A DNA stretch of 64,000 nt from Escherichia phage vB_EcoM_DE17: the sequence record OP595146.1. One strand, written 5' to 3'. Below, piece by piece: positions 4,306 through 59,157 of this stretch. Position numbers and translations under genes: made by a program. Positions within the stretch are counted from its first letter, which is position 1. Every line of letters starts with the position of its first letter. The notes beneath the pieces are model-generated. The model searched no databases, was not told where the DNA came from, and worked only from the letters and a program-made list of their open reading frames with translations.

Positions 4306-4325
4306 AGCATTCTCCAGAAATTAAA

Positions 4326-4343
4326 AAGGCTCCCGTAGGAGCC
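4326..4343 (-). terminator. intrinsic terminator after NAMPT-like gene
   Basis: Minus strand hairpin GGCTCC-TACG-GGAGCC followed by TTTTTAATTT. Confidence 0.6.
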
Positions 4344-4358
4344 TCTTATCATATACTT

Positions 4359-6140: not shown

Positions 6141-6160
6141 CTTTTAATCTCTCTCAAAAT

Positions 6161-6176
6161 GGGGCTTTTAAGCCCC
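6161..6176 (-). terminator. hairpin after Prs-like gene
   Basis: GGGGCTTAAAAGCCCC then ATTTTGAG on minus strand. Confidence 0.45.
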
Positions 6177-6185
6177 TATAAACTT

Positions 6186-7067
6186 TCAATCAAGGTTTGC
6201 TACAGTAACTTGACTATAATGTGTTAAGCCACGGTCTTTAGCTTCGCCTAAAGAGTTTGTAGTGTAAATATGGTCGATACCATTGTCAAGAAGGTTTTCA
6301 ACATCTTTAGAGAAGATACCATGTGTTACATAAAGTTCCACACGTTTTGCACCTGCTTCACGAAGATGTTTCGCTGCTTCTATGAAGGTTCGACCACCAT
6401 CACAGATATCATCCAGAATCATAACGGTTTTATCTGTCAAATCAACATCATCAAGGATTCGCATACCAGTAATTTCACCAGTCTTAAGGTTACGCACTTT
6501 AGACATTGTGATGTATGGTTTATCCACCTCTTTAGCAGTCTCTGCAATCTTCTTAGCAGCACCTGCATCTGGGGCTACTAAGTAATCAATCAGTGGGTCA
6601 TTTGCATAGTGGACTGCAATTTCCTTTTGAGGAATACTCTGGAAGCAGTTAAACAGGTTATCTGGTACATAGCTGTGAGGGTCAACTGCACAGACTGCAC
6701 CAAATCCCATTGCATTTACCTGTTTAGCAAAAACCTTTAAAGCTGCTGCGTCACCTTTAAACATGTGACGGTCATAGCGTGCATTTGGTAAGTAGTAAAA
6801 GATGACAGTCTTTAAAGCATAATCATGAGGAATTAAATCATCAATTGCTTCTTTAGCAAGTGCCACAGCAAACAATGTATCCTTATCATAACCTTTTACA
6901 ATCATAATCACATTGTTGATGGATGATGCTGCATAAGCAGTGAAATCAACAAACTCTGGCGAAAAGTGTCCACCAATCTCACCAGAAGGAAATTGGATGA
7001 TGTTAAACTCTTCTTCATGAGTTCCTTTAGTTGGTGAATGAACTGTAACACGGATAGATGTTTTCAT
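6186..7067 (-). CDS. ribose-phosphate pyrophosphokinase family protein (Prs-like; possibly ADPR-PP synthetase type)
   Basis: PRPP-synthetase-like motifs VDPHS and MILDDICDGGRTF; start moved to the ATG at 7067 with upstream GAGAGAGA; track start at 7082 appears non-ATG. Confidence 0.75.
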   Translation of the reverse strand: MKTSIRVTVHSPTKGTHEEEFNIIQFPSGEIGGHFSPEFVDFTAYAASSINNVIMIVKGYDKDTLFAVALAKEAIDDLIPHDYALKTVIFYYLPNARYDRHMFKGDAAALKVFAKQVNAMGFGAVCAVDPHSYVPDNLFNCFQSIPQKEIAVHYANDPLIDYLVAPDAGAAKKIAETAKEVDKPYITMSKVRNLKTGEITGMRILDDVDLTDKTVMILDDICDGGRTFIEAAKHLREAGAKRVELYVTHGIFSKDVENLLDNGIDHIYTTNSLGEAKDRGLTHYSQVTVANLD

Positions 7068-7078
7068 AGTTTTCTCTC

Positions 7079-7357
7079 TCAATCAAAAGTTACGTTTGTT
7101 ACTGCCATTGCAGATTTGCATTTTGCAGGGTCTACAACGTGATAAAGTACACTACAGTTACCTGTGCTGTCTGGTACAGGTTTAACCCATTGTTGCTTGA
7201 CAGTTGGTTCGCCTAAGTCTTTGTAAGAACCATCTGTAAAGTTGTTTACCATCTCAAGTGCAATTGGCTCTGGAACATGACCACGTATCATGTACATTTC
7301 ACAGCCATTACCACCTTCACTGACTAATGGTAAAATCTCCCACTTTTCTTTAGCCAT
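7079..7357 (-). CDS. hypothetical protein
   Basis: 92-aa ORF in operon context. Confidence 0.45.
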   Translation of the reverse strand: MAKEKWEILPLVSEGGNGCEMYMIRGHVPEPIALEMVNNFTDGSYKDLGEPTVKQQWVKPVPDSTGNCSVLYHVVDPAKCKSAMAVTNVTFD

Positions 7358-7865
7358 TGTAAGTTGCCCTATAAACTATCTCGAACTTCAACAGGAGAGA
7401 TATTGCCAAATCTGTATAGTTGTTGTCAAGCACATCTGGCATATTATTTTTGATATATCTCTCTTGCTCTTCATAGGTCATCTTAGGGGTACTTAAAAGA
7501 CTATCTCCTTGCTTCTGGTTATCAGCTTTAGTCTGAATAAACCAGTTTGCACAGTGATGTTCGCCACCTTTTGTAACAGGTTTGTGGTGGCCTAATGTGA
7601 AGGATTGACTGCCTGTGTATCTGCAAAGTTTATTGAGTACTGTAATGGTGTTCTTCACAACAAAGCATTCATATAGGTTGTCTATGGTGTAGTGTGGGTA
7701 ATATCGAAATAATGCTCTTTCACGAGTACTCTCACGATTCCAGAGAATCATGTGGTTGGAGTTGGAAGGGTCGTATTGGTGGGAGTCAATGAACTCTTGA
7801 CGTTCCTCAAAACTGAGTCTTAACACTGACATTGCAGCAGAACGTTTCAGATTTGACAGATACAT
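7350..7865 (-). CDS. putative HNH-type nuclease
   Basis: 171 aa; GHHKPVTKGGEHHCANW resembles the HNH core (HH..P...GG.....N); second half of motif not clear. Confidence 0.4.
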   Translation of the reverse strand: MYLSNLKRSAAMSVLRLSFEERQEFIDSHQYDPSNSNHMILWNRESTRERALFRYYPHYTIDNLYECFVVKNTITVLNKLCRYTGSQSFTLGHHKPVTKGGEHHCANWFIQTKADNQKQGDSLLSTPKMTYEEQERYIKNNMPDVLDNNYTDLAISLLLKFEIVYRATYNG

Positions 7866-7916
7866 ATTATCTCCAAAATAAAAAGGGAACCTTTACAGTT
7901 CCCTTATAGTATCTGC

Positions 7917-8237
7917 TTACTGAGCTACTTTCAAGATTCTTGTGAATGGAATTTCACTTTCTTCCATTAACTCTTTAGTTTCTTTGGTAACTTTCACAAA
8001 GTTATCTAGGCAGATAATCTTCTTATCTTTCTTACTATAGGTTAATTTAACCTTTTCAATATCTTTCTCAGAGCTTTTCTCTTCATTGAAGAGTTTTACA
8101 GCCTCTTTGAATGGGAGATATGAGCCATCATTATCACTAATGAATCCTGTACCACAATAGTAGGAGTTATGTTCTCTAGCCATAAACTGGCACAGTAAGA
8201 AAATCTGTAATTTACGAGTGTTATAAACTTTGCTCAT
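7917..8237 (-). CDS. hypothetical protein
   Basis: 106-aa ORF. Confidence 0.45.
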   Translation of the reverse strand: MSKVYNTRKLQIFLLCQFMAREHNSYYCGTGFISDNDGSYLPFKEAVKLFNEEKSSEKDIEKVKLTYSKKDKKIICLDNFVKVTKETKELMEESEIPFTRILKVAQ

Positions 8238-8239
8238 GA

Positions 8240-8524
8240 TTATTTAGCCTTCTTATTACGTTTACGGTTACGAGCTTTCTTAGCTGCTCGTTTAATAGCT
8301 GCTGCACCAGACGGACGGTGGGCTTGTTTCTTACCACCTTTGCCACGGCCTACATAGATGTAAGGTTGCTGTTCAATTTGGCTTGTAAGAACCTGTGCAA
8401 CCGCTGAAGCATCTACACCGACCTGCTTTCCAGTCATAGAAACAATGGCTGCTGCTTTTGCCAGTGCCTTCAAGAATCCAGCTTTCATATTACCTAAAAT
8501 TCCCATTTTTAGTCTCTCTCTCAT
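8240..8524 (-). CDS. hypothetical protein with Lys/Arg-rich C-terminal tail
   Basis: 94 aa; C-terminus AAIKRAAKKARNRKRNKKAK suggests nucleic-acid binding. Confidence 0.45.
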   Translation of the reverse strand: MRERLKMGILGNMKAGFLKALAKAAAIVSMTGKQVGVDASAVAQVLTSQIEQQPYIYVGRGKGGKKQAHRPSGAAAIKRAAKKARNRKRNKKAK

Positions 8525-8604
8525 TAAAGTTTAATACAGAACTTATGAAGTTCTTCTTCAGTGATACCAATTGGAGTTATACCTTAGTCCATTTGCCAGA
8601 ATAA

Positions 8605-9090
8605 TCACTCTGCTCTCCACTGACAATCACCTTGCCACCCATACTCTTTTCTCCAGAGGTTTTGATTATCAGAACCACGATACGGTTTAACTGTTGGTTT
8701 AGATGAATCATACTTACCATCAATCACCACGTCAACATATTTCATCACATCTAGGTGAATTTTTTCGTGTAACTGAAAACCTGTCCAGAGCCAGATAGAC
8801 TTCTCTGGATAAACAGTTTTAATACGTTTGCATATGTTGGTAACCTCTTGAATATTTCTATCATCCAGAGGTTCTCCACCAAGTATTGACAACCCACTGA
8901 TGGCCTCATCACCCATTAAATTAATAATGCCGTAAAGGTTTGCATAAGTAAACTCTTTACCAGCATTAAACTTCCAAGACTCCCTGTTAAAGCAGCCTTC
9001 ACAGTGATGTTTACAGCCAGCTACGAAGAGGCTTACCCGAACCCCTTCACCATTAGCTGTGTCAAATGGTCGAATCTCCATGTAATTCAT
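8605..9090 (-). CDS. nrdG: anaerobic ribonucleotide reductase activating protein (radical SAM)
   Basis: CKHHCEGC radical-SAM cysteine cluster near N-terminus; size and position next to nrdD. Confidence 0.8.
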   Translation of the reverse strand: MNYMEIRPFDTANGEGVRVSLFVAGCKHHCEGCFNRESWKFNAGKEFTYANLYGIINLMGDEAISGLSILGGEPLDDRNIQEVTNICKRIKTVYPEKSIWLWTGFQLHEKIHLDVMKYVDVVIDGKYDSSKPTVKPYRGSDNQNLWRKEYGWQGDCQWRAE

Positions 9091-9099
9091 CTAGTTACC

Positions 9100-9399
9100 T
9101 CACCAATACATATAAGTGTTCTTAGCGGCTTTCTTTGGAGACTTGCTATCAATATCAAAATCTTCATCTAAGAAGGATGTCTTAGAAAGCTGCCTTATTT
9201 GTGTTCTTGTAAGACGTTTAGTGGCCTTCTTAATCTCTCTACAAGGCTGACTTGTAAAGTCATAAGAGCCACCTTTTCTGGACATCATATCAGAATGGAA
9301 GTAGACATCTAAAGCATTTTCTCTGTTACGTACCTCATTTCTCCACTCATAAAGTCCATGAACGTTCTTTAAACCTTTTCTTCGAATTGTTTTACTCAT
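9100..9399 (-). CDS. hypothetical protein
   Basis: 99-aa basic ORF. Confidence 0.45.
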   Translation of the reverse strand: MSKTIRRKGLKNVHGLYEWRNEVRNRENALDVYFHSDMMSRKGGSYDFTSQPCREIKKATKRLTRTQIRQLSKTSFLDEDFDIDSKSPKKAAKNTYMYW

Positions 9400-9791
9400 T
9401 CAAACACCACCTGACAAGGAACCTGTTTAGTAATAAATTCTTCACAGTGCTCTTTAATGAAGTTTTGTAATGGTACACAATCTTGTGCGCAAGTCATTAG
9501 CATAATGTACTCTGGATTCATGATGTTTTCAAGACTGTAGAAGACAACATCATCAGATAGTTCGTGACCATCTTCTTCAGACCAAGTTCCAGTGACTACA
9601 GCTAATTTGTCAAGCAATTCATTAGGCAATGCTACACTATCTTCTACAGAATCACTTAGAACATTGTCGCCGATATACAATGTGAAGACCGTGTGGAATG
9701 TTGAGTATCTTACGTGATTCTTTTCACAAGAGCCACACTCTGAGGCATAATCTTTAATCCACTCTAACTGTTTTTGGCTCAACTTAATCAT
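9396..9791 (-). CDS. hypothetical protein
   Basis: 131-aa acidic, Cys-containing ORF; 4-nt overlaps on both sides. Confidence 0.45.
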   Translation of the reverse strand: MIKLSQKQLEWIKDYASECGSCEKNHVRYSTFHTVFTLYIGDNVLSDSVEDSVALPNELLDKLAVVTGTWSEEDGHELSDDVVFYSLENIMNPEYIMLMTCAQDCVPLQNFIKEHCEEFITKQVPCQVVFE

Positions 9792-9988
9792 AATTTCACC
9801 TTAGTCGGTAATGCACTGAATGCTATAGATAACCCTAAAAATGGTTTGAAGCATGACCATAAATCCATCTGACCATGATATGAGAAACCCCATTGTGGGT
9901 CTGAAAAACCCCATACCATAACACTAACCCCAAAGAAGAAGACTAGAATATGGAGTATGTATATCAACGCTTTTGATATCTTAAACAT
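9788..9988 (-). CDS. small hydrophobic protein
   Basis: 66 aa with a predicted transmembrane stretch (ILHILVFFFGVSVMVWGF). Confidence 0.35.
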   Translation of the reverse strand: MFKISKALIYILHILVFFFGVSVMVWGFSDPQWGFSYHGQMDLWSCFKPFLGLSIAFSALPTKVKL

Positions 9989-10141
9989 TTTAACTTACCT
10001 TTCAATTCACAATAAGAGAGTCCTAAAAAGAACCCTAGTAAGACAGAACCTATGAACAACCCAATAATACTCTCTGCCATATCTAACATCCAATAAAAAG
10101 GTGATGTAAGCCTACCAAGACCCACATCACCTTGTCAAGTT

Positions 10142-12286
10142 TTACATAGAGACTCTATCACGAATCTCAGCGATTTTTGCATCGTTCATTCGGGATTCAC
10201 CTTTAATCTTAGTCCATCCAAGATACCCACACACCCTGTTAATCACAGAGATATCATGTGAATGGCAAACCTCACATTCTTCAACATCAGCCTTTGGTCT
10301 GTTACCACAATGTTCACAGATTGCTAAGTCAAAGTTAAGCCCCTGATAGAAACCTTTCAACATCCCTCTGGTAATACAACTTTTAAGTGCTGTTAAGTTT
10401 TCTGGATTAGCTACCCTTACATACTGGATTCTGCCACCTCTACAGATATGGAAGAATGGCTCTTCTAAGTCCTGCTTCTCAAATGGTGAGATGTCTGCTG
10501 CAACATTCATATGAAAACTATTTGTGAAGTATTCCTTGTCAGAAACACCTTTAATAACGCCAAACATATCTCTGAACTGTTTTAACTGAGTTCCGCAAAG
10601 TGATTCTGCTGGAGTACCATAGACGGCATATAAGAAGCCATCTTCATTTTTAAACTCTTCAGTTTTCATGTTGATGTATGCCAGAACATCGTATGCAAAA
10701 CTACAGCTTCCAACTTCATGAAGTCGTTTACCTTCAGCAAGAACAGATAGCTCATCAAGCGCGGTAACCCCAAAAGAAGCTGTGAAGGACTTCACGATAT
10801 CCCAGCCAACCTTGTCAGTAGGTTTCTTATTCCCTTTGTACAGACCACCTTGTGTGAATGCAAGAGGGTTAGAACTTGCTGGCATATTAGCAATCATTTC
10901 GTAACGTTTCTTGTGGAAGCTGCGAATCATCTCTAGGTACTTATCAAGCTCTTTCCAGAAATCTAAGCCATTCTCTTTAGAATACTGGTAAATCATTGGT
11001 AAGTTCAAAGATACAGCACCAATGTTAGCACGACCAACATAGAACTCTTCCCCATTCTCATTAAAATATGGAGATAAGAAGGCTCTGCAACCCATCGGTG
11101 AAATTACCTTGCCAGAACGCTCAAAAGCTTCTGCTACAGCACCATGACCAGATACGCTTAAGAAATCTGGATACATCGCTTTAGAGCAACACTCAATAGC
11201 TTTACTGTACAGGTGTCCTTGACAGATATTTTCATCATGTCTCTTCTGGTCATAGATATAAACCAGCTTAGGAAATACAACAGGTTTTTTACTCTTACCT
11301 TGTCCATTCATACGAACATCTAGGAGAGTACTTGCAATCATGTATTGTAGTCGGTTGTCTTCATTAGACATGTCTGAGTCAAGCAAACCAAATGTTAAAG
11401 TTGTGAATGCAAAATCACCACGGCTGCAAGGTACAGTATTTAGTTTCATCTCTAGTGACTGGAAGCCTTGAGTTAATTCAATCTGTAGCTGCTCCATGAC
11501 ATAGTTATGGTAATGTTCTTTAGGAATACCGTAAGATGCTGCTTTCTCAGCATGATAGCGTAGAGACTTCTTAGCATACGGTACAAGTGCCTTATCAATC
11601 TCTGCTAAAGTAAATCCACCAAATTGCTGTGCAGTTGCTGAAAGAACTACATCACCGATAACTTGTAAGGCTGACAGTACAGACTTCGGTTCACAGTATT
11701 CGATGCCAGACATTTCAAAGCCACCTTTCAGTACTTTACCAATGTCGAACAGGCAACAGTTAATCCCACCAAAAATTAGGTCTCTTAAGTCATGGATGTA
11801 GATAAACCCTTTTTCAATGGCTTCGAGTTCCTCTGGTGTTAAATGGTACTGTTTAAAGATTTCTTTAGTCAGATAACCACGAATAATTGAACCTTTTGTA
11901 GAAATTAAACTACTGTCAAAGTTAGCATTTTCACGGTCACCTAAGAAGAGTGTGTCTCTGGTCTTTTGGTAAAGCTCATCCCAATTTTGAGCAACCTCTT
12001 TACGGTAATTTCTGTATGTTGAGTAAGACTCATAAATCTCGTGATTGACTTCTGCCAAAGCACCCTCAACAATGCTGTGGATATCATTTACCGAGATAAG
12101 CAAATTACCCTGCTTAGTGGACTTTACCAGAATCCTCATAAATGCTGACTCAAGAGCTTGGGTAACATCTGGTGGCAGTTCTTTATATCCAACCCTGTTA
12201 GCTGACTTTGTCACTGCCGCTAAAACTTTTTTGATATCAGGTTCTTCAAGTGAGCCATTCTTTTTAATAATCTGTACTTTGTTCAT
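10142..12286 (-). CDS. nrdD: anaerobic ribonucleoside-triphosphate reductase
   Basis: 714 aa; N-terminal ATP-cone; C-terminal Cys cluster and glycyl-radical motif RVCGYLG. Confidence 0.9.
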   Translation of the reverse strand: MNKVQIIKKNGSLEEPDIKKVLAAVTKSANRVGYKELPPDVTQALESAFMRILVKSTKQGNLLISVNDIHSIVEGALAEVNHEIYESYSTYRNYRKEVAQNWDELYQKTRDTLFLGDRENANFDSSLISTKGSIIRGYLTKEIFKQYHLTPEELEAIEKGFIYIHDLRDLIFGGINCCLFDIGKVLKGGFEMSGIEYCEPKSVLSALQVIGDVVLSATAQQFGGFTLAEIDKALVPYAKKSLRYHAEKAASYGIPKEHYHNYVMEQLQIELTQGFQSLEMKLNTVPCSRGDFAFTTLTFGLLDSDMSNEDNRLQYMIASTLLDVRMNGQGKSKKPVVFPKLVYIYDQKRHDENICQGHLYSKAIECCSKAMYPDFLSVSGHGAVAEAFERSGKVISPMGCRAFLSPYFNENGEEFYVGRANIGAVSLNLPMIYQYSKENGLDFWKELDKYLEMIRSFHKKRYEMIANMPASSNPLAFTQGGLYKGNKKPTDKVGWDIVKSFTASFGVTALDELSVLAEGKRLHEVGSCSFAYDVLAYINMKTEEFKNEDGFLYAVYGTPAESLCGTQLKQFRDMFGVIKGVSDKEYFTNSFHMNVAADISPFEKQDLEEPFFHICRGGRIQYVRVANPENLTALKSCITRGMLKGFYQGLNFDLAICEHCGNRPKADVEECEVCHSHDISVINRVCGYLGWTKIKGESRMNDAKIAEIRDRVSM

Positions 12287-12310
12287 TATTGCCCCTTTAC
12301 ATGCTAAAAA

Positions 12311-12326
12311 GGTCTCCGAAGAGACC
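12311..12326 (-). terminator. intrinsic terminator upstream of nrdD
   Basis: Minus strand GGTCTC-TTCG-GAGACC followed by TTTTTAG. Confidence 0.6.
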
Positions 12327-12334
12327 CTTTCATT

Positions 12335-12541
12335 TTAAATCTTTTTAGAAAACTTCGAAACGAGTTTTCTTAGTTTTTCAGTGATACCTAGCTGTATCTC
12401 TAATATTTCAAAGATAACCCATAGTAACATGGCTCCAAACAATGAACCTTGTTCAAAATCAGTAAATAGGTTAACAACAAGCATACCAATCACAATGGCT
12501 GGTGCATCAACAACCAAGCCTTCCCAAAGGCGTTTAAGCAT
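12335..12541 (-). CDS. small membrane protein
   Basis: 68 aa, two hydrophobic segments. Confidence 0.4.
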   Translation of the reverse strand: MLKRLWEGLVVDAPAIVIGMLVVNLFTDFEQGSLFGAMLLWVIFEILEIQLGITEKLRKLVSKFSKKI

Positions 12542-12776
12542 TATTCACCTCTGCCATAAAATTCTGTAGCGTTCCAACAGGTTTTAGGTTTTGTCCATCA
12601 GTTTTCATGATGAATGGCATCTGACGAACTGGCATCTGTGCAATATCCATCAGGTCTGACAGTTCATAATCCTGCCCTAACATTCTCACAACATGGTCAA
12701 TACCACGAGCTTTTGCAAAATTCTTTGCAGTCTCACACTGAGGGCATCCAGTTTTGGAGTAAATTACATAAGTCAT
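12534..12776 (-). CDS. glutaredoxin/NrdH-like redoxin
   Basis: 80 aa with CPQC active-site motif near N-terminus; lies between nrdB and nrdD. Confidence 0.65.
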   Translation of the reverse strand: MTYVIYSKTGCPQCETAKNFAKARGIDHVVRMLGQDYELSDLMDIAQMPVRQMPFIMKTDGQNLKPVGTLQNFMAEVNNA

Positions 12777-13849
12777 TAAGGAACCTCTAAAAATCCACTA
12801 TTCAAATCATCTACAACAGTATTCAACAGGTACGCACCATTCTGTTGCTCCTGATTAGCATTCTGCTCTTTATCAATTTCCATCTTCTTAATCATATACT
12901 TCAAAGGTGGTTCTTTAGGAGCTATAAAATCTCTGGGAATGCCAAACATATCATACAGTGGGGCAGCATTATAGTAAACCCACTCATGAAGAAGCTTTGT
13001 ATTTAAGCCAACTACAGCACGTCCTTCGGAGAAGATATAATACGACCATTTCTCTTCACTTTCAACTACTTCATCTAAGATTACTTTAATCTCTGGAAGG
13101 ATTTGTTGAAAAGCTTTCTGCCACTCATCATCTCTTAAAGTTTCTTTTAAAACTTCAATATCAATTTTAGTGTGAAGGATTTCGTCAAGCATAATTTTCT
13201 GGACAGCTTGAGCAATACCTTGAAATTTATCTTGGGCATCAAGTGCAAAAGTACATGCAAAAGATGCCATAAAAGAAATACCTTCAAGTGCAGTCACTGC
13301 AAATAGACCTTTTAGAATCACTTTATGGAAGTGTAAAGGGTCTTTGTCCAGAAGTGAGTCACGCACATAACTCAGACGATAGTTTATACCTTCATCCAGT
13401 AATTCTTCAAGGACACGATTCACAGTTTTTAATCGGTCTTGTACAGCAACATTCTGGTTAATCTCATCTAAGATTGTTTCAGGGTTTTTAATACATTGTC
13501 TTACAATCTCTGAGTAAGTAAGAGCGTGTAGGTTTTCAATCTCAGACTGCTTCATAATTGCAGTTGCATAGATGTCATCAGAGATGAAGGGTGCAAAGGC
13601 AAATGCCAAGCTCTTAGCAACTTGAGTGTCTGCCTCCCACTGCCACTTAAGAATCTCAAGCATTACACCTGACATTGATGCTGGGACACTCTCAAAATCA
13701 AGACGTGATTGTTCAAAAGGGAACTCATCTTCTGACCAGTCTTGTGCTTTTTGTTGTTTATAAAGTTCGAAGATTTTTGGGTAGTGCTTATTAAGTGAGT
13801 CAAAAGTTTTTCTCTCACCACCTAAAAAGATTGGGTGCTGGTTAATCAT
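12776..13849 (-). CDS. nrdB: ribonucleotide reductase class Ia small subunit
   Basis: Ferritin-like di-iron protein pattern; start set to ATG at 13849 (MINQHPIF) overlapping upstream stop as ATGA; next to nrdA. Confidence 0.85.
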   Translation of the reverse strand: MINQHPIFLGGERKTFDSLNKHYPKIFELYKQQKAQDWSEDEFPFEQSRLDFESVPASMSGVMLEILKWQWEADTQVAKSLAFAFAPFISDDIYATAIMKQSEIENLHALTYSEIVRQCIKNPETILDEINQNVAVQDRLKTVNRVLEELLDEGINYRLSYVRDSLLDKDPLHFHKVILKGLFAVTALEGISFMASFACTFALDAQDKFQGIAQAVQKIMLDEILHTKIDIEVLKETLRDDEWQKAFQQILPEIKVILDEVVESEEKWSYYIFSEGRAVVGLNTKLLHEWVYYNAAPLYDMFGIPRDFIAPKEPPLKYMIKKMEIDKEQNANQEQQNGAYLLNTVVDDLNSGFLEVP

Positions 13850-14103
13850 AGCGTGATTTCTCCTTTCTTTATCATTTCTAAGGCTTGTTTTCTGTCTAAA
13901 ACTTCCCAATTCTCTTTGTTAAACATCTCATAAGGTCTTGCGTAGATTTTACCATCTGCTGTAGAGATGTAAGAGGCTCCAGTGACCCATAAGTCATCAT
14001 TCTGCTTTATCATGATACCTGTGCTGCTCACATAGTACAATGTTTTGCGGGGTTTGTAGAGCAAGTATATTGGTCGCTCATGTTTTTCTATTAAATCTTT
14101 CAT
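13846..14103 (-). CDS. hypothetical protein
   Basis: About 85 aa from internal ATG at 14103; sits between nrdA and nrdB. Confidence 0.4.
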   Translation of the reverse strand: MKDLIEKHERPIYLLYKPRKTLYYVSSTGIMIKQNDDLWVTGASYISTADGKIYARPYEMFNKENWEVLDRKQALEMIKKGEITL

Positions 14104-14158
14104 GGTCTCTCCAAAGTTATTTTTAGAGGGTCTTTTACGACCCTCATAGTTATTAAAA

Positions 14159-16393
14159 CTAAACACCACAACCCTCGCAATAAGCATCTTGCAGTGCAGA
14201 TTTACCTACACCAATGCGACTGTTAAGGTAGTACATGGTTTTCATACCTACCGAGTTGGCATAAATCATGTACTTCAAAGCTTGAGCCAATGATACCTTC
14301 TTAGCTTTTGCGTAGTCAACATAGAAATCTGAAGAGATAGCTTGACCAGTGAACTTTTGAACAATTGCATAACAATCAATCAGGTCAAAGGTGTCAATAC
14401 CCCAAGCAATTTCATATACATACTTCAACTCTTCATAATCTGGAACAATAAACAGTACGTTACCAGTTGCAGACTTTTTGGTTAAAATAAAGTCACGAAT
14501 TGGGTACAAGCCGTTAGTTGTATTAGTCGCCAGAGAAGAACTCTCGTTAGGCATGTAAGCCTCTAATACAGAGTTACGGATTCCACCATTTTCTTTGATA
14601 CGCTGTGCTAAGTCATCCCAATCATATCGTAGTTTTGCATCATGCTTTTCATCAATCTTCTTGTTGGCTGTCTTTGGAGGAACCCAACCTTCAGGATACT
14701 TAGTGAACTTCATGTACTCTGGAACGCCACGCTCTTTAGCAAGTCTCAGAGAGGCTTCATGCAGATAGTAAGAGTGCATCTCTGCAAGTTCATGAAGCTT
14801 CGTCTTACCTGCTCTTGAAGAATAGTTCACGTAGTTTTTCGCAAGGTAATGAGCCACATTTGTAAGGCCAATCCCAACAGAGCGACGCTTCTGAACATGG
14901 TTGCGCATCGACGGATACGGATAATCCATAAGGTCAATAACGGAGTCAACCATTGCAAGAGCATAATAAGCAACGTCAGCGTATTCATCTTCTGAAATTC
15001 TCCCTGCAACCAAACTAGCTAGGAAGCAAAGAGCTACCTCACCATCCTCTTTCACAGCATCGTCTCTGTAAAGGTCTGTCTCTTTCTCAAAACCATACAC
15101 TGGCAATACAATTTCCATGCAAAGATTTGACATCTTCAATGGCTCTTTAAATGGTGTATGTGTGTTTGCATTATTTGTGAAGAATGGGTACACACGACCT
15201 GTTGCGTAACGCTGCTGGATAAACAGTTTAGCAATTTCACGAGCCTTTACTCGTCTGTGTTTAACACCAGAATGTACTGCGTGACCAACTGCCATAGCAA
15301 ACTCATCAGCGGATGCTGTGTAGAACATGTCATAGAGTTTTGGTGCATCTTTGTAAGAGAATAGCAACCAATCTGTATCATACTGGACACACTGCCAGAA
15401 ATAATCGTTTGTGCCGAATGAGTAGTCCATCTCATTAATACGTTTAGAAGGAACCGTTGTAGGGTGCTTCAAACGCAGTAAGTCTTCAATCTGTGGGTCT
15501 AGAGCGGTGTAGAAGTTGTTAGCTGAACCACCACGGCTCTTCTGTTTGTTTGCCTCTACAGATGAACGTACAAGTTTGTAATAAGGTAGCTTACCCATGT
15601 GCTCAATAGTATTTTGACGGATACCATCACCAATAGTGCGAGTCTCCATCAGCATACCGATACCAGCTTGCTTTGTAGTCATATCATAAGCAACCTTTGC
15701 AGCAATGCCAAGAGATTCAGCAGTATCGTTTGCCTTAATCAAACAGCATGACGCATAACCTGACTTAGTAGCACGTAAACCATTCAGATAAGGCGTAGGA
15801 GCGTTAATCTTCAGGTCAGATAGGTAAGTGTACAGCTTAATCACATCTTGCAGTCTACGGTGTTTTGGTTGCTTCTCAAAAGCTTTCATAGCCATACCCA
15901 TAAACATAAATTGTGGTGACTCAAAAAGTCTTCCAGTTTTAATATCACGGATACCATATTTGTCTCTGAACTGTTTCAACACTGCATAGCCGTAAGAGAT
16001 ATCTTTTGAGTGCACAATATACCCTTGCAGATATTCAAGCTCTTCCTGAGAATAGTCCATCTTCTCCCAAAGTCCTGCTCTCTCCATATTTTTAACGAAG
16101 GTAACCAGCGTAGGAACCTTAGTAAAGCCTCCAAAGGCTTCTTTGTAGATAATCCCCAGAAGTAGCCGTCCAGCCATATCTGAGTACTCTTGAGTTTGCT
16201 TATCAACACAAACATCAATCATGGCTTGGTGCATCTCTTTTGTAGTGCAACCCTCATAGACACGCTTCATGGCTTCCATAGTGACTTCTGACCAGATAAT
16301 TCCACGCTTATCTGCCCATGATGCCCACTTATTCAGTCTTTCTGGGTCAAAGCTGACTACTGTACCGTTTGATTTTTTAATTGTCTTAATCAT
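14159..16393 (-). CDS. nrdA: ribonucleotide reductase class Ia large subunit
   Basis: 744 aa; N-terminal ATP-cone; C-terminal CEGC pair. Confidence 0.9.
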   Translation of the reverse strand: MIKTIKKSNGTVVSFDPERLNKWASWADKRGIIWSEVTMEAMKRVYEGCTTKEMHQAMIDVCVDKQTQEYSDMAGRLLLGIIYKEAFGGFTKVPTLVTFVKNMERAGLWEKMDYSQEELEYLQGYIVHSKDISYGYAVLKQFRDKYGIRDIKTGRLFESPQFMFMGMAMKAFEKQPKHRRLQDVIKLYTYLSDLKINAPTPYLNGLRATKSGYASCCLIKANDTAESLGIAAKVAYDMTTKQAGIGMLMETRTIGDGIRQNTIEHMGKLPYYKLVRSSVEANKQKSRGGSANNFYTALDPQIEDLLRLKHPTTVPSKRINEMDYSFGTNDYFWQCVQYDTDWLLFSYKDAPKLYDMFYTASADEFAMAVGHAVHSGVKHRRVKAREIAKLFIQQRYATGRVYPFFTNNANTHTPFKEPLKMSNLCMEIVLPVYGFEKETDLYRDDAVKEDGEVALCFLASLVAGRISEDEYADVAYYALAMVDSVIDLMDYPYPSMRNHVQKRRSVGIGLTNVAHYLAKNYVNYSSRAGKTKLHELAEMHSYYLHEASLRLAKERGVPEYMKFTKYPEGWVPPKTANKKIDEKHDAKLRYDWDDLAQRIKENGGIRNSVLEAYMPNESSSLATNTTNGLYPIRDFILTKKSATGNVLFIVPDYEELKYVYEIAWGIDTFDLIDCYAIVQKFTGQAISSDFYVDYAKAKKVSLAQALKYMIYANSVGMKTMYYLNSRIGVGKSALQDAYCEGCGV

Positions 16394-16415
16394 TTTTGAA
16401 TCCTACAGATGAGAA

Positions 16416-16433
16416 GAGCCTCCGAAGAGGCTC
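16416..16433 (-). terminator. hairpin between hypothetical gene and nrdA
   Basis: GAGCCTC-TTCG-GAGGCTC UUCG-type tetraloop hairpin; weak U-tract. Confidence 0.45.
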
Positions 16434-16439
16434 CCTAGT

Positions 16440-16772
16440 TTAAATCTTGAAAATTTGCTCATTCTGCCACATATCGTAAAACTTATCACTTACCTTTGTG
16501 ACTGACGAAGTGTGCATACAATTGACGAACCATGATATATTACTATTCATAATTATTTCAAGCTGTTTTGTGACATCCACATTCATGTCTTCAACAACGT
16601 AATTACCTCGCATCTTGCAAACAACTCTTCCAAACAAGATTGCACTTCTGCCTCTTCGGTCGTCACAGTACATAACTGTGTCTCCGTGCTTAACATCTTG
16701 TCCGATACTATCAACACCTAATTTAGCACCTGAGATAATGTCATCATAAGATAACTTTTTTGCTTTAGACAC
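16440..16772 (-). CDS. hypothetical protein
   Basis: 110-aa ORF. Confidence 0.45.
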   Translation of the reverse strand: MSKAKKLSYDDIISGAKLGVDSIGQDVKHGDTVMYCDDRRGRSAILFGRVVCKMRGNYVVEDMNVDVTKQLEIIMNSNISWFVNCMHTSSVTKVSDKFYDMWQNEQIFKI

Positions 16773-17097
16773 GGTATTTCTCCAAGTTTCTTTTTAGATA
16801 TAACCAACCATAGTCAGTTCTTTCTACACCCATGAAGAGTGGAGCCATTACAACTTTACCAAAAGTATTCCTGTGTTGACAGATTTCAAAAGAATACTCT
16901 TTCTCAATATCAATCCCGTATTTGTACAGAACTGCTTTTAAAACTTGTTCATTATCCAGAAGTGTATCTGGAGTCTCACCATACTTCTCAAGTAACGGGT
17001 CATTCATAAACACCGTCATAGAGATATTGTAGTTTGAGAAGTGGCTCTTCTGAGCCACACCTTCTTTATTAATGTTCTGTGAATCCATTATAACCAA
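16765..17097 (-). CDS. hypothetical protein
   Basis: 110-aa ORF. Confidence 0.45.
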   Translation of the reverse strand: MVIMDSQNINKEGVAQKSHFSNYNISMTVFMNDPLLEKYGETPDTLLDNEQVLKAVLYKYGIDIEKEYSFEICQHRNTFGKVVMAPLFMGVERTDYGWLYLKRNLEKYRV

Positions 17098-17824
17098 CCC
17101 CTTTTAACCAGCACTTCAGGTTATTAGCATCATAATTCAGTTTCGGGTATGAGGTTACATGGAACTGCTCACCATCATAGTAGACAATATCTGCAATCCA
17201 TAGTCCATTCTCTTTACAGAAATCTTTATCTGCTTTAGAGGTAATTGGATTAACTTCTACAAAACCATCTACACCCAAATCCTTTAAGCTACATACAATA
17301 CCTTTGCAGATAACGCATGTGTCAGATACTACCACAAAAAGTTCTTGGCTTTCAAGTTCTACAATGTATTCACCAAGCTGAACTTTAGGGAGATTAGATT
17401 GCTTCATAATCTTCCCATCGGCTGCACGAACAATTGCATACCATTCTTTACCATCAACTACTGACATTCTGATGATACACTCTTGACCAGTACGCTTCTC
17501 AATATCTGCAAGACGCTTTAAAGCTTCTTCATAGTCGTCTGTGTACTTCAGGTCATTATTATGGCAAACAGCTTTCATAGCACCGTTATGGTCATGTTGT
17601 GATAGATAAATCAGACCGTCAAGAACATATTGCAAATCTGCCTGAGCATCCAGTGTCTCAATGGGGTCTTTCTCTTCAATTGCTTTTACAAGCTCTTTTG
17701 CTTCTTCAAGCATACATAGAGATTGAGATTTCAAAGACTCCCAATACTCATCACTGTAAGGTTGCTTTTGAGTGTTTCCACAACGAAGATTCCAGTTTTT
17801 TACTGATTCTCTTGAGTTAAACAT
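17069..17824 (-). CDS. hypothetical protein (possible MazG-like N-terminal helical domain)
   Basis: 251 aa; N-terminal helical region with acidic pattern loosely like MazG-type NTP pyrophosphatases; C-terminal CxxC. Confidence 0.45.
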   Translation of the reverse strand: MFNSRESVKNWNLRCGNTQKQPYSDEYWESLKSQSLCMLEEAKELVKAIEEKDPIETLDAQADLQYVLDGLIYLSQHDHNGAMKAVCHNNDLKYTDDYEEALKRLADIEKRTGQECIIRMSVVDGKEWYAIVRAADGKIMKQSNLPKVQLGEYIVELESQELFVVVSDTCVICKGIVCSLKDLGVDGFVEVNPITSKADKDFCKENGLWIADIVYYDGEQFHVTSYPKLNYDANNLKCWLKGVGYNGFTEH

Positions 17825-18063
17825 TTGGACTCCTTAAAATATCTGTTAACCTTTAGCTCTCGTGTTTCAATATATTCCAGATGCTCACGTAGCTCTTGAC
17901 GTTTAAGCATTAGGTGCTGCATTTGAGATTCAACAGCTTCAACCTCTTTAATTATTGACTCTCTGGCATTTGCAAGAATGCGCTCAAGTTCTTCAATCTT
18001 GCTGTCAACTTTTGCTACATGACTCACAGCTTTACTTTTGTTAAACATTTTATTCTCTCTCAA
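17800..18063 (-). CDS. hypothetical coiled-coil protein
   Basis: 87 aa, heptad-like charged pattern. Confidence 0.4.
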   Translation of the reverse strand: MRENKMFNKSKAVSHVAKVDSKIEELERILANARESIIKEVEAVESQMQHLMLKRQELREHLEYIETRELKVNRYFKESKCLTQENQ

Positions 18064-18069
18064 TAGTTA

Positions 18070-18567
18070 TCAAGCACAGTTTGCTTTCATTACCTTATGG
18101 ATTCTTTTTTCAGCATCTTCATAAGTTTCTTTAGTAATAAACTTAATTGCTGCAATATTGGCATTGTAGAAGAGTCTGAGCTTAGAGTCAATCCTTTTTG
18201 TCATTACATCGAATTTATGTTGAAGGTTTGCTTCACCATAAACTAGACCACCTTTTGTGTAGTAGGTTTGAATAATGTAAAAGTCAAAAAATTCTTTTCC
18301 AAAGCTCTCAATATCTTTTTTGATATACTCAGAAGAAGTCTCATAAGTCATCCAATCACTTTCCTTAGTGACTACCTTCTTCCGAGTCTTGCCAGCAACT
18401 TTTCTTTTGGTCACACTATTAAGCTGTTTCTTTCCGATATAGTATTGTCCGGTTTTCTTACAGTATACTAAATAGACAAAGCCAAAATGTTTAGTGGGGT
18501 CAACTTCCCCACACAAAGATACCCAATGACCGTAGGTAGGACAATTGCCAAATCCTTTAATCTTCAT
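18070..18567 (-). CDS. GIY-YIG domain protein (putative endonuclease)
   Basis: GFVYLVY...YYIGKK matches the GIY-(x10)-YIG spacing. Confidence 0.5.
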   Translation of the reverse strand: MKIKGFGNCPTYGHWVSLCGEVDPTKHFGFVYLVYCKKTGQYYIGKKQLNSVTKRKVAGKTRKKVVTKESDWMTYETSSEYIKKDIESFGKEFFDFYIIQTYYTKGGLVYGEANLQHKFDVMTKRIDSKLRLFYNANIAAIKFITKETYEDAEKRIHKVMKANCA

Positions 18568-19597
18568 TCATACACGGCTCCCAATTATATTTCTTAAAAG
18601 AGAAATTATCTTTTGGATTTCTCTCTTGATATGCTATCCAGAAATGTTGCTCCATTAACTCTAATGGTGTTTTGGTAACAGTCTGTCCATCCCATGACAC
18701 ATAGGTGTAAGACTCTTTTTTAGCATAGAGTTCATAGATAGCGTCAAGGCACTCTTTATAGGTCTCTTTACCATCTAAAGCATTCATCACAGCTACTTTG
18801 CCAGCACCTTTAAGGCCGAAGTAGTTGTCTGCATTATCTCCAGCAACAGCCTGATAACACAAAAATTTAAAACCTACACCAACTGTTTTTGCAGCTTTTG
18901 GTTTTGATTTGATAGGACAATCCCAGATATCACCAACATTATTGTCAGCAATAAAAATTAGTGGTGACTTTTCATAGGTCATATCAATACAATAAGTCCC
19001 TTCAGCTTGTCGAAGGTCTTTGTCAATACTCATAAGAGCAGCCTTCTTACCCATCTTTTCAGCTTTAGCAATTACGATTGAGTCTGCTTCGAAGCCACCC
19101 TTTAAGAGTTTAAACTCTGGTCTTGATAAAAGATATTCACGACAAGCAACTAAGTGTGTTGGTGTGACAGCTTCTTTACGGTTACCTTGATATTGGTGCT
19201 CAAGCCCTTTAATGTCTTTATGTTTATGTACACCCTTCTCTGTTAGATAACCTACCCAAGTTCTTTCTTTACCAACAACCTTAAGCCATTCCTGAAGAAC
19301 CTGCTGAGTAGCCATGATAGCTTCTTTTTCACTCTTAGCTTCTTTCCAAGTCTGTCTTTCCCATTCATCTTCATCAAATGTCAGACCAAGTTCTTCCACA
19401 AGGATTCTCTGGTCTGCTAACCATCTTGCAGCGTCTTTTGCATTATCAAATGGTTCAGATTCTTCTGCTGTGAGTTTATTGACATATTTATATTTTGCTT
19501 TCTCAACTACACAAGCACCTTTATAGGCAATACTATCAGAGTCAATAAAGACATGTGTAACTGAATCTGGAAGTTTTGTTAGCGTATACTGCTCCAT
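18557..19597 (-). CDS. 5'-3' exonuclease / flap endonuclease
   Basis: N-terminal VFIDSDSIAYK and H3TH-like AGDNADNYFGLKGAGKVAV match FEN-family motifs. Confidence 0.65.
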   Translation of the reverse strand: MEQYTLTKLPDSVTHVFIDSDSIAYKGACVVEKAKYKYVNKLTAEESEPFDNAKDAARWLADQRILVEELGLTFDEDEWERQTWKEAKSEKEAIMATQQVLQEWLKVVGKERTWVGYLTEKGVHKHKDIKGLEHQYQGNRKEAVTPTHLVACREYLLSRPEFKLLKGGFEADSIVIAKAEKMGKKAALMSIDKDLRQAEGTYCIDMTYEKSPLIFIADNNVGDIWDCPIKSKPKAAKTVGVGFKFLCYQAVAGDNADNYFGLKGAGKVAVMNALDGKETYKECLDAIYELYAKKESYTYVSWDGQTVTKTPLELMEQHFWIAYQERNPKDNFSFKKYNWEPCMNED

Positions 19598-59153: not shown

Positions 59154-59157
59154 CAAA

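What the first reader, a model, noticed from the sequence alone, without database searches (positions are those of the whole stretch)
7350..18567. Free-standing HNH-like and GIY-YIG-like nuclease genes within the nucleotide-metabolism region
ORF 7350..7865 carries an HNH-like core (HHKPVTKGGEHHCAN) and ORF 18070..18567 a GIY-(x10)-YIG motif. Such genes are often free-standing homing endonucleases that mobilise themselves between related phages. nrdA, nrdB, nrdD and thyA appear uninterrupted here, with no introns seen.
Basis: partly seen in the sequence, partly recalled or inferred. Interest (0 to 1): 0.4.

Follow-up and report, generated by a model that had tools for sequence, protein, structure and literature searches.

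The report
Resident phage nucleases, not homing endonucleases
The two flagged genes of this Felix O1-like phage do encode nuclease-type proteins, but they sit at the same place in essentially all relatives and evolve like ordinary phage genes, so they are resident enzymes; the mobile "homing" nuclease genes of this phage group are a different kind and are absent from this window.

Summary
The window is a Felixounavirus (Felix O1/wV8-like) genome segment. Both observations hold.

- **ORF 18070..18567(-):** a 165-aa stand-alone GIY-YIG catalytic domain (Pfam PF19835, E 2e-27).
- **ORF 7350..7865(-):** a 171-aa divergent HNH-type (beta-beta-alpha-metal) protein, PHROG 3500, labelled "hypothetical" in the records I inspected. 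Support is sub-threshold but consistent.

The homing-endonuclease reading is not supported.

- Each gene is single-copy and occupies a fixed slot in Felixounavirus, Mooglevirus, Kolesnikvirus and Hafnia phages.
- Distant homologues occur in other phage families.
- Catalytic residues are conserved and dN/dS is 0.02-0.15.
- Neither protein has a recognisable DNA-targeting domain.

The truly mobile genes of this phage group are HNH_3-AP2 genes at three junctions: nadV|prs, GIY|exonuclease and downstream of the DNA polymerase. All three are empty here. The GIY|exonuclease junction is occupied in 22 of 58 sampled relatives, with a 76-79% identity trough around it.

The likely roles are inferred, not shown. 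The GIY-YIG enzyme probably makes entry cuts for the adjacent 5'-3' exonuclease. The HNH-like gene heads a terminator-bracketed unit with the NARP1 NAD+-reconstitution genes and is dispensable. This is ordinary, of low to moderate interest.

The parts
18070..18567 (-). 165-aa stand-alone GIY-YIG nuclease domain protein (PF19835 / phrog_447; often mislabelled 'NAD synthetase' or 'GIY-YIG homing endonuclease' in GenBank)
18557..19597 (-). 5'-3' exonuclease (FEN / T7 gp6-like); its stop overlaps the GIY-YIG start by 11 bp
   Evidence: phrog_107 exonuclease E 2.8e-63. Coordinates. Adjacent to the GIY-YIG gene in all Ounavirinae loci examined unless an HNH-AP2 gene is inserted between them.
18557..18567 (.). 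Empty insertion site for the mobile HNH_3-AP2 homing endonuclease gene (GIY-YIG | exonuclease junction)
   Evidence: Occupied by a ~500-bp HNH-AP2 gene in Felix O1 ORF106, wV8 gene 113, fjerdesal 81 and Sf14 gp075. 22 of 58 sampled relatives are occupied. Identity to occupied genomes falls to 76-79% over about 18,300-19,000.
17800..18063 (-). 87-aa conserved small ORF (phrog_4442) directly downstream of the GIY-YIG gene
   Evidence: Syntenic in relatives.
17069..17824 (-). MazG-like nucleotide pyrophosphohydrolase
   Evidence: phrog_2144 E 5e-102; Pfam PRA-PH.
7350..7865 (-). 171-aa divergent HNH (beta-beta-alpha-metal) protein, phrog_3500; 'hypothetical protein' in the records I inspected
   Evidence: H93, G100, G101 and N107 invariant, H103 and N116 nearly invariant, across 17 members down to 22% identity. 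dN/dS 0.06-0.15.
7883..7905 (-). Terminator-like hairpin just upstream of the HNH-like gene start
   Evidence: Consensus scan only; not verified experimentally.
7079..7357 (-). 92-aa ORF (phrog_4726), overlapping the HNH-like stop by 8 bp and the adps start by 4 bp
   Evidence: Conserved in Felixounavirus relatives.
6186..7082 (-). [quoted passage not shown]
   Evidence: Pfam Pribosyltran/Pribosyl_synth. Bas63 (JohannRWettstein) covers the 14-kb query at 94% identity. Bas63 operon characterised in bioRxiv 10.1101/2024.02.11.579819. Bas63 identity confirmed.
4359..6140 (-). 'Nicotinamide phosphoribosyltransferase' homologue = Namat of NARP1; followed by a terminator-like hairpin at 4347..4324
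6141..6185 (.). Empty site where Felix O1 carries HNH endonuclease ORF128 (between nadV and prs)
   Evidence: Felix O1 locus compared with window ORFs. No HNH-AP2 homologue in the window.
7917..8237 (-). 106-aa DUF7390 protein; called 'putative HNH endonuclease' in some GenBank records, unsupported
   Evidence: Pfam DUF7390 E 2e-15, with no HNH hit. Annotations seen.

Best explanation
Both ORFs encode real nuclease-superfamily proteins that are resident, vertically inherited genes of Ounavirinae phages. They are not mobile homing endonuclease genes.

GIY-YIG gene. ORF 18070..18567 is a catalytic-domain-only GIY-YIG enzyme with its catalytic Tyr, Tyr, Glu and Asn conserved. It is wedged, with overlapping stop and start codons, between a 5'-3' exonuclease gene and a MazG gene in the nucleotide-metabolism and replication operon. 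Inferred mechanism: it nicks or cuts DNA with little sequence specificity (host chromosome, or replication/recombination intermediates). This would create entry points for the co-expressed exonuclease, in the way T7 gp3+gp6, or T4 EndoII plus exonucleases, feed host DNA into the nucleotide pool or process recombination intermediates.

HNH-like gene. ORF 7350..7865 is a divergent His-Asn-Asn beta-beta-alpha-metal protein. It is the first gene of a tightly packed, terminator-bracketed unit: HNH-like, orf92, adps, namat (NARP1). It is beneficial, because it is under purifying selection, but dispensable, because it is deleted or replaced in three relatives. Inferred: an accessory metal-dependent phosphodiesterase or nuclease serving nucleotide supply or counter-defence.

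Shown here: fold and family, conservation, fixed synteny, single copy, purifying selection, and absence of targeting domains. Inferred: substrates and physiological roles.

The genuine homing endonuclease genes of this phage group are HNH_3-AP2 genes. Their three known insertion sites are all empty in this window.
For: Identity of the phage: 261 phage records match 6000-20000, the best at 95-96% identity, all Felixounavirus-like.

Fold: for GIY-YIG; for HNH.

Near-universal presence:
- The HNH-like gene matches in 255 records (240 full-length) against 261 that match the region.
- The GIY-YIG gene matches in 297 records, including Erwinia and Hafnia phages.
- The junction query matches in 264 records.

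Single copy: 428 records / 428 places and 815 / 818.

Fixed synteny in Felixounavirus, Mooglevirus, Kolesnikvirus-type and Hafnia phages.

Broad family distribution:
- PF19835 occurs in about 400 T4-like cyanophage records, for example Syn9 gp202 at E 2.9e-53.
- phrog_3500 occurs in Stephanstirmvirinae and some T4-like phages.

Purifying selection: GIY-YIG dN/dS 0.02-0.06 and HNH-like 0.06-0.15, similar to nadV, nrdG and exo.

No extra domains: PF19835 covers residues 21-138 of 165, and there is no Pfam or NCBIfam hit for any DNA-binding module.

Contrast with true homing endonuclease genes:
- HNH_3+AP2 domains.
- 148 records / 172 places.
- 22 of 58 sampled relatives occupied at the GIY|exo junction.
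- Identity trough around the site only against occupied genomes.
- No homologue in the window.

Operon context: overlapping start and stop codons and terminator-like hairpins at 7905..7883 and 4347..4324.

Dispensability: a 711-bp deletion in BPS17L1, replacement by a DNA methylase in S19cd, and only a 36-bp remnant in GE_vB_7A.
Against: - No biochemical data exist for either protein, so substrate and role are inference from gene context and analogy.
- Bas63 is sensitive to several restriction-modification systems. This suggests unmodified DNA, so there is no obvious way for a non-specific nuclease to spare phage DNA.
- HNH membership rests on sub-threshold and profile-profile evidence. Both fold searches with the modest model (pLDDT 67) gave no HNH match.
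- The HNH-like gene shows a mosaic patch: 80-86% identity over about 7500-7800 against wV8 and Felix O1, with 98-100% identical flanks. Some lateral exchange of alleles therefore occurs.
- The census relies on BLAST summary counts and a 58-genome sample, not a full gene-by-gene tabulation.
Confidence: 0.6

Rival explanations
1. One reading: both are active free-standing homing endonuclease genes that spread between related phages by cutting gene-minus alleles.
For: Both have nuclease catalytic motifs. The GIY-YIG domain resembles Seg/Tev catalytic domains. Many GenBank records label the gene 'GIY-YIG homing endonuclease'. The phage group is known to carry homing endonuclease genes: six copies in Felix O1 according to PMC8300805.
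Against: Near-universal, single-copy, position-fixed distribution across genera. No DNA-binding or targeting domain. Purifying selection over deep divergence. No gene-minus 'empty site' allele was seen for the GIY-YIG gene. The three losses of the HNH-like gene are two deletions and one replacement with different end points, not clean empty sites.
Confidence: 0.07
2. They are former homing endonuclease genes that went to fixation and now persist as decaying relics without benefit to the phage.
For: A homing-endonuclease-like catalytic domain without a targeting domain could be a truncated remnant. EC6 shows a split GIY-YIG gene. Three relatives have lost the HNH-like gene.
Against: dN/dS is 0.02-0.15. 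Catalytic residues are invariant from coliphages to cyanophages, and across phrog_3500 down to 22% identity. ORFs are intact in hundreds of genomes.
Confidence: 0.05
3. The HNH-like protein (with orf92) is a functional accessory of phage NAD+-reconstitution or counter-defence loci, rather than a DNA-metabolism nuclease.
For: - In the window it is co-oriented and codon-overlapped with orf92 and adps, followed by namat, between two terminator-like hairpins.
- Homologues lie within about 2.5 kb of prs/Adps-Namat in several Ounavirinae-like contigs with differing gene orders (L007, L009, L013, L019, L020).
- Homologues also lie next to NARP2-type NAMPT in T4-like contigs. An NMNAT-Nudix gene is seen alongside in L012.
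- In S19cd the slot is taken by a DNA methylase, a typical counter-defence gene.
Against: - In Stephanstirmvirinae the gene sits next to a UvrD-type helicase and RNR genes, with no NAMPT annotated in the ~50-kb stretch examined (about 33 kb to one side, 16 kb to the other).
- NAMPT homologues occur in 2,024 phage records against 428 for this family, so most NARP phages lack it.
- NARP1 works as a two-gene operon.
- Adjacency may only reflect a shared early/nucleotide-metabolism module.
Confidence: 0.15
4. The GIY-YIG ORF is an NAD synthetase, as annotated in Felix O1 and many derived records and in PHROG 447.
For: Only the inherited product name.
Against: No Pfam or NCBIfam NAD-synthase hit. 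A strong GIY-YIG hit instead. At 165 aa it is too small for NadE.
Confidence: 0.01

Closest known systems
Pfam PF19835 'Putative endonuclease segE, GIY-YIG domain' (phrog_447): stand-alone GIY-YIG proteins of T4-like cyanophages (e.g. Syn9 gp202), roseophage CRP-7 gp22 and Ounavirinae
   Same: Same family by HMM (E 2e-27 for the window protein; Syn9 gp202 E 3e-53). Same size class (about 150-170 aa), single copy, catalytic residues shared.
   Different: Nothing substantive; the window protein is an ordinary member. I found no tested function for the family in the papers searched. The 'SegE' and 'NAD synthetase' names are annotation labels.
GIY-YIG homing endonucleases (I-TevI; T4 Seg proteins)
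   Same: Catalytic domain fold and motifs. I-TevI is the best structural match. phrog_7363 and phrog_314 'homing endonuclease' hits over the N-terminal ~115 residues.
   Different: No C-terminal DNA-binding domain. Not sporadic: fixed position in all relatives. Has a K/R-rich beta-hairpin insertion at residues ~50-69.
T4 endonuclease II (DenA)
   Same: A stand-alone GIY-YIG catalytic domain encoded among nucleotide-metabolism genes. EndoII degrades host DNA for nucleotide reuse (role as summarised in PMC1564403). In Syn9 the homologue lies about 1.8 kb downstream of nrdA-nrdB.
HNH / beta-beta-alpha-metal nucleases (Pfam HNH PF01844, HNH_5 PF14279)
   Same: The His...GG...Asn...Asn core aligns with the HNH core of a Pfam-positive family (hhalign 83.7%). 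Predicted strand-strand-helix topology.
   Different: Below Pfam thresholds. Has a large conserved N-terminal helical region (R22, D62, E66, N78 invariant) of unknown role. No Cys4 zinc site. The family is tiny: 18 clusters at 50% identity in 1.8 billion proteins.
HNH_3-AP2 free-standing homing endonuclease genes of Felix O1-like phages (Felix O1 ORF95, ORF106, ORF128)
   Same: Similar size (163-174 aa), small nuclease genes in the same genome region.
   Different: Different HNH subfamily plus an AP2 DNA-binding domain. Sporadic and multi-copy distribution. Flanking divergence signature. No homologue in the window.

Membership tests
GIY-YIG nuclease superfamily (PF19835 subfamily) | Significant match to the family HMM over the whole domain | tested here: met
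   E 2.3e-27, 96 bits against a cut-off of 25; residues 21-138 cover model positions 10-123 of 123.
GIY-YIG nuclease superfamily (PF19835 subfamily) | Catalytic residues: Tyr of 'GIY', Tyr of 'YIG', Arg/Lys, Tyr/His, Glu, Asn | tested here: met
   Y32, Y43, G45 and N135 invariant; Y75 and E112 nearly invariant across 12 family members aligned with the I-TevI catalytic domain. R62/K64 conserved within Ounavirinae. The exact Arg equivalent is uncertain because of an insertion.
GIY-YIG nuclease superfamily (PF19835 subfamily) | GIY-YIG alpha/beta fold | tested here: met
GIY-YIG homing endonuclease (Tev/Seg type) | Two-domain architecture: N-terminal catalytic domain plus C-terminal DNA-binding module | tested here: not met
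   Only 27 residues (one predicted helix) follow the catalytic domain. No further Pfam or NCBIfam domain.
GIY-YIG homing endonuclease (Tev/Seg type) | Sporadic presence/absence among close relatives, with gene-minus target alleles | tested here: not met
   Matches in 297 records, 260 of them full-length, against 261-264 records that carry the surrounding region. Same slot in four Ounavirinae lineages. No empty-site allele seen.
GIY-YIG homing endonuclease (Tev/Seg type) | Site-specific cleavage near its own insertion site, and gene conversion in crosses | not testable with these tools
   Requires enzyme assays and mixed infections.
HNH (beta-beta-alpha-metal) nuclease superfamily | Significant match to an HNH family model | tested here: inconclusive
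   - No Pfam hit for the window protein.
- phrog_2214 HNH at E 1.3e-4.
- Family members hit seven different HNH PHROGs plus the endonuclease VII PHROG; best E 4.9e-6.
- Two distant members give Pfam HNH hits at E ~0.03.
- The family profile hits HNH protein P0050 at E 8.7e-5.
- hhalign against an HNH/HNH_5-positive family gives 83.7%, E 8e-6.
HNH (beta-beta-alpha-metal) nuclease superfamily | Conserved His general base and Asn / His-or-Asn metal-site residues on a strand-strand-helix scaffold | tested here: met
   H93, G100, G101 and N107 invariant; H103 and N116 nearly invariant in 17 sequences down to 22% identity. Predicted strands at 89-93 and 108-112, helix at 113-121.
HNH (beta-beta-alpha-metal) nuclease superfamily | Structural similarity to solved HNH nucleases | tested here: inconclusive
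Free-standing HNH homing endonuclease | Sporadic, often multi-copy distribution; attached DNA-binding domain (e.g. AP2) | tested here: not met
   428 records / 428 places. Matches in 255 records against 261 for the region. No AP2 or other DNA-binding domain hit. The HNH_3-AP2 genes behave differently.
T4 EndoII (DenA)-like host-DNA nuclease | Specific sequence or structural relationship to EndoII, and phage DNA protected by modification | tested here: inconclusive
NARP1 operon (Adps + Namat) | Adjacent prs-like (PF14572) and NAMPT-like (PF04095/PF18127) genes of the phage Adps/Namat clades | tested here: met
   Window 6186..7082 and 4359..6140 carry these domains. Bas63 covers the 14-kb query at 94% nucleotide identity, and its operon was characterised. 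This applies to the neighbours, not to the two flagged genes. Whether the HNH-like gene belongs to the operon was not tested.

The most novel reading that the evidence does not exclude
phrog_3500, the HNH-like family, may be a previously unrecognised accessory component of phage NAD+-reconstitution or counter-defence loci, rather than a DNA nuclease. It would be co-transcribed with orf92, adps and namat here. It recurs next to NARP1-type genes in Ounavirinae and next to NARP2-type NAMPT (with an NMNAT-Nudix gene in one contig) in T4-like phages, despite different gene orders. Under this reading it would act on a nucleotide-derived substrate or on a defence component. A milder version: both nucleases are domesticated homing-endonuclease catalytic domains recruited to core phage functions.
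Probability: 0.15. Interest if true: 0.55.

Novelty: new member of a known kind. Interest (0 to 1): 0.25.

Why it matters
1. **Annotation.** In GenBank the GIY-YIG gene is variously called "NAD synthetase", "HNH homing endonuclease" and "GIY-YIG homing endonuclease". The HNH-like gene is "hypothetical", while its DUF7390 neighbour is wrongly called HNH. Clean assignments prevent overcounting homing endonuclease genes in Felix O1-like therapeutic and diagnostic phages.

2. **A rule of thumb.** A nuclease motif alone does not make a homing endonuclease. Distribution, copy number, targeting domains and flanking divergence separate resident nucleases from mobile ones. The window offers a side-by-side example, because it holds the uninvaded target allele at 18557..18567.

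3. **Possible biology.** If the linkage of the HNH-like family to NARP loci is functional, it would add a component to a recently discovered counter-defence pathway. That remains speculative.

Tried and rejected
- **PDB sequence searches** with either protein or their family profiles gave no nuclease hits. The only "significant" hits were staphylococcal protein A repeat constructs matching residues 12-57 of the HNH-like protein. Each repeat scores E>1 on its own, so I treat this as a short compositional or helical resemblance.
- **hhalign of the family against single HNH sequences** was weak: 20% for P0050 and 0.1% for a Hafnia HNH. Only a profile-profile comparison worked.
- **NCBIfam** has no model for either protein.
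- **"NAD synthetase"** is rejected: there is no supporting domain.
- **DUF7390 ORF as an HNH endonuclease**, as in older annotations, is rejected: no HNH hit.
- **Group I/II introns** in nrd or thyA genes are rejected: Rfam finds only tRNAs.
- **A specific EndoII relationship** was considered. The structural evidence is too weak to claim it.
- **Obligatory NARP linkage of the HNH-like family** was considered. It is weakened by the Stephanstirmvirinae context and by the 2,024 versus 428 record counts.

Full report
**What the window is.** A 14-kb query (6000-20000) matches 261 phage records, the best at 95-96% identity. Almost all are Felixounavirus or related Ounavirinae: Escherichia, Salmonella, Shigella and Citrobacter phages, including wV8, Felix O1-like phages and Bas63/JohannRWettstein. 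The region is a leftward-transcribed block. In transcription order it reads: primase/helicase ... exonuclease, GIY-YIG, orf87, MazG ... nrdA, nrdB, glutaredoxin, nrdD ... nrdG, orf94, DUF7390, HNH-like, orf92, 'prs', 'NAMPT'.

The HNH-like ORF (7350..7865, minus strand, 171 aa) has no Pfam hit of its own. It belongs to PHROG 3500, function unknown, at E 6e-91. The evidence for HNH homology is as follows.
- It hits phrog_2214 'HNH endonuclease' at E 1.3e-4.
- Seventeen family members collectively hit seven HNH PHROGs plus the endonuclease VII PHROG, with a best E of 4.9e-6.
- Two distant members give sub-threshold Pfam HNH/HNH_5 hits.
- A family profile searched against 1.8 billion representative proteins found only 18 clusters. 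One of them is a bona fide HNH protein, at E 8.7e-5.
- A profile-profile comparison with that protein's family gives probability 83.7%, E 8e-6. In that family, 7-8 of 11 members pass E<0.01 to Pfam HNH or HNH_5. The comparison aligns H93, G100-G101, N107 and N116 with the HNH core.
- H93, G100, G101 and N107 are invariant, and H103 and N116 nearly so, down to 22% identity.
- The AF2 model places them on a strand (89-93), strand (108-112), helix (113-121) unit.

Fold searches with this modest model (pLDDT 67) were uninformative.

The nrdA, nrdB, nrdD and nrdG genes are intact single ORFs. thyA is intact at 34201..35100 on the plus strand, outside the finding's range. Rfam reports only 22 tRNAs and no introns.

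It argues against mobility.
- *Presence at the nucleotide level.* The HNH-like gene matches in 255 records (240 full-length) and the GIY-YIG gene in 297 (260 full-length, including Erwinia and Hafnia phages). By comparison, 261-264 records carry the surrounding region.
- *Copy number by tblastn.* Both are strictly single-copy: 428 records / 428 places, and 815 / 818.
- *GIY-YIG synteny.* The order MazG, small ORF, GIY-YIG, exonuclease is kept in Felixounavirus, Mooglevirus Sf14, Erwinia phage Coenus and a Hafnia phage.
- *HNH-like synteny.* The gene always lies just upstream of prs. That is between nrdG and prs wherever nrdG is present in the locus (Felixounavirus, the Hafnia phage and contig L013). 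In Kolesnikvirus no nrdG appears in the stretch examined. Its order relative to DUF7390 is swapped in the Hafnia-type phages.
- *Selection.* Pairwise dN/dS is 0.02-0.06 for the GIY-YIG gene and 0.06-0.15 for the HNH-like gene. This is the same range as nadV, nrdG, prs and the exonuclease.
- *Targeting domains.* Neither protein has a recognisable DNA-binding module. The GIY-YIG protein has only about 27 residues beyond the catalytic domain.

**What the real mobile genes look like.** Relatives carry HNH_3+AP2 genes of 163-174 aa at three junctions: nadV|prs (Felix O1 ORF128), GIY-YIG|exonuclease (Felix O1 ORF106, wV8 gene 113, fjerdesal 81, Sf14 gp075) and downstream of the DNA polymerase (ORF95).
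- The fjerdesal allele matches 148 records at 172 places, and only 44 matches are full-length.
- In an evenly spaced sample of 58 Felixounavirus/Mooglevirus records, the GIY|exo junction is split by a ~490-bp insert in 22 and contiguous in 36.
- None of seven such HNH proteins has a homologue anywhere in the 64-kb window. All three sites are therefore empty here.
- Sliding-window identity shows a trough of 76-79% over about 18,300-19,000 against the occupied genomes Felix O1 and fjerdesal. Identity stays at 92-95% against an unoccupied genome, and is 95-99% outside the trough. That is the expected target-site and co-conversion signature of a homing endonuclease gene at 18557..18567.

The GIY-YIG gene is thus a neighbour and partial target region of a homing endonuclease gene, not one itself.

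**Wider families.** PF19835 proteins occur in about 400 T4-like cyanophage records as well as roseophage, Stenotrophomonas, Vibrio and Sinorhizobium phages. They are usually labelled 'NAD synthetase'. Syn9 gp202 matches the full Pfam model at E 3e-53 and lies about 1.8 kb downstream of nrdA-nrdB. There is no NAD-synthase domain, so that name is an inherited error.

phrog_3500 occurs in Ounavirinae, in Stephanstirmvirinae (phAPEC8-like, next to a UvrD-type helicase and RNR genes) and in some T4-like phages.

**Context of the HNH-like gene.** The neighbouring 'prs' and 'NAMPT' genes correspond to those of Bas63. [quoted passage not shown]
- In the window the HNH-like stop overlaps the orf92 start by 8 bp. 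The orf92 stop overlaps the adps start by 4 bp.
- Terminator-like hairpins lie at 7905..7883 and 4347..4324. This suggests, but does not prove, a four-gene transcription unit.
- Homologues lie within about 2.5 kb of prs/Namat in several Ounavirinae-like contigs with differing gene orders.
- Homologues also lie near NARP2-type NAMPT in T4-like contigs, with an NMNAT-Nudix gene alongside in L012.
- This is not so in Stephanstirmvirinae. NAMPT homologues are also far more widespread: 2,024 records.

The gene is dispensable.
- BPS17L1 has a 711-bp deletion, window 7114..7824.
- S19cd keeps codons 3-38 and carries an N6/N4 DNA methylase in its place.
- GE_vB_7A keeps only 36 bp.

These losses have different end points and are not clean empty sites.

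A mosaic patch covers about 7500-7800, at 80-86% identity to wV8 and Felix O1 with 98-100% identical flanks. It shows allele exchange by ordinary recombination.

**Mechanism (inferred).** The GIY-YIG protein is most economically read as a low-specificity or structure-specific endonuclease. It would work with the translationally coupled 5'-3' exonuclease in host-DNA breakdown or in processing replication and recombination intermediates. The analogies are T7 gp3/gp6 and T4 EndoII. There are three caveats.
- The phage DNA appears unmodified.
- The domain is closest to homing-endonuclease catalytic domains, so an origin by domestication is plausible.

The HNH-like protein is probably an accessory metal-dependent nuclease or phosphodiesterase. 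A link to counter-defence is possible but unproven.

**Verdict.** The motifs are real. The homing-endonuclease interpretation is not supported. The GIY-YIG gene is a known family member with confused annotation. The HNH-like assignment of phrog_3500 is a modest new annotation. Overall this is ordinary, with one speculative lead (NARP linkage).

Noticed in passing
window 4359..7082 (-): The genes annotated 'ribose-phosphate pyrophosphokinase' (6186..7082) and 'nicotinamide phosphoribosyltransferase' (4359..6140) correspond to the Bas63 operon, which was shown to be NARP1 (Adps+Namat). NARP1 is a counter-defence pathway that rebuilds NAD+ from ADP-ribose and nicotinamide.
   Followed up: partly
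window 7883..7905 and 4324..4347 (-): Terminator-like hairpins bracket HNH-like, orf92, adps and namat. The first three have overlapping start and stop codons, and a 45-bp gap precedes namat. This suggests a four-gene unit rather than the published two-gene operon. It is a consensus scan only.
   Followed up: partly
window ~18,300..19,000: Identity to relatives that carry the HNH-AP2 gene at the GIY|exo junction (Felix O1, fjerdesal) drops to 76-79%. It stays at 92-95% against a relative without the insert. This is a target-site or co-conversion divergence signature, and the window holds the uninvaded allele.
   Followed up: yes
L022 (Salmonella phage S19cd) 3501..4591; L004 (vB_CECAV_041) 1080..2806: The slot upstream of prs is a variable hot spot. 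S19cd replaces most of the HNH-like gene with an N6/N4 DNA methylase. CECAV_041 has a 1.7-kb insert of four hypothetical genes between orf92 and prs.
   Followed up: partly
window 7917..8237 (-): This DUF7390 ORF (106 aa) is annotated 'putative HNH endonuclease' or 'endonuclease' in wV8, BPS17L1, fjerdesal and a Hafnia phage record. No HNH model hits it. It always neighbours the HNH-like gene in Ounavirinae, with the order swapped in Hafnia-type phages.
   Followed up: partly
window 18070..18567 and phage records generally: PF19835 GIY-YIG proteins are labelled 'NAD synthetase' across many phage records, and PHROG 447 carries the same label. There is no NAD-synthase domain. This appears to be a propagated annotation error; Felix O1 ORF107 carries the same label.
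   Followed up: yes
window 7695..7832 (residues 12-57 of the HNH-like protein): The N-terminal segment LSFEERQEFIDSHQYDPSNS resembles the staphylococcal protein A Z-domain motif [20 protein letters not shown]. This gives summed E-values down to 1e-9 against multi-repeat SpA constructs. Each repeat alone scores E>1, so it is probably a helical-motif coincidence.
   Followed up: partly
window 7500..7800: There is a mosaic patch inside the HNH-like gene: 80-86% identity to wV8 and Felix O1, while the flanking genes orf92 and DUF7390 are 98-100% identical (dS 0.52 against 0-0.04). This implies allele exchange with breakpoints near the gene ends.
   Followed up: partly
window 8240..8524 (-): orf94 (phrog_4425) is hypervariable among close relatives: 56-67% nucleotide identity to wV8, only about 40% amino-acid identity in Felix O1 and BPS17L1, and indels near 8585 and 9096 in other relatives.
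   Followed up: no
window 59,082..63,865 (-): A cluster of 22 tRNA genes.
   Followed up: no
GU169904.1 'Staphylococcus phage SA1', MG065668.1 'Campylobacter phage A126' and similar records: Records named for unrelated hosts contain Felixounavirus sequence at about 94% identity over the whole 14-kb region. These are probably contaminated or misassigned assemblies.
   Followed up: no
NC_027369.1 Escherichia phage EC6, 58566..59061: The GIY-YIG gene is annotated as two CDSs and aligns in two tblastn pieces. This is either a frameshift or a sequencing error, and it was the only disrupted copy noticed.
   Followed up: no
P0050 (metagenomic protein, 363 aa): This protein has three tandem ~120-aa HNH modules. 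The catalytic His is kept only in the first (EHIKP, against DYITP and EYITP in the other two). It was found as the most distant hit of the phrog_3500 profile.
   Followed up: no
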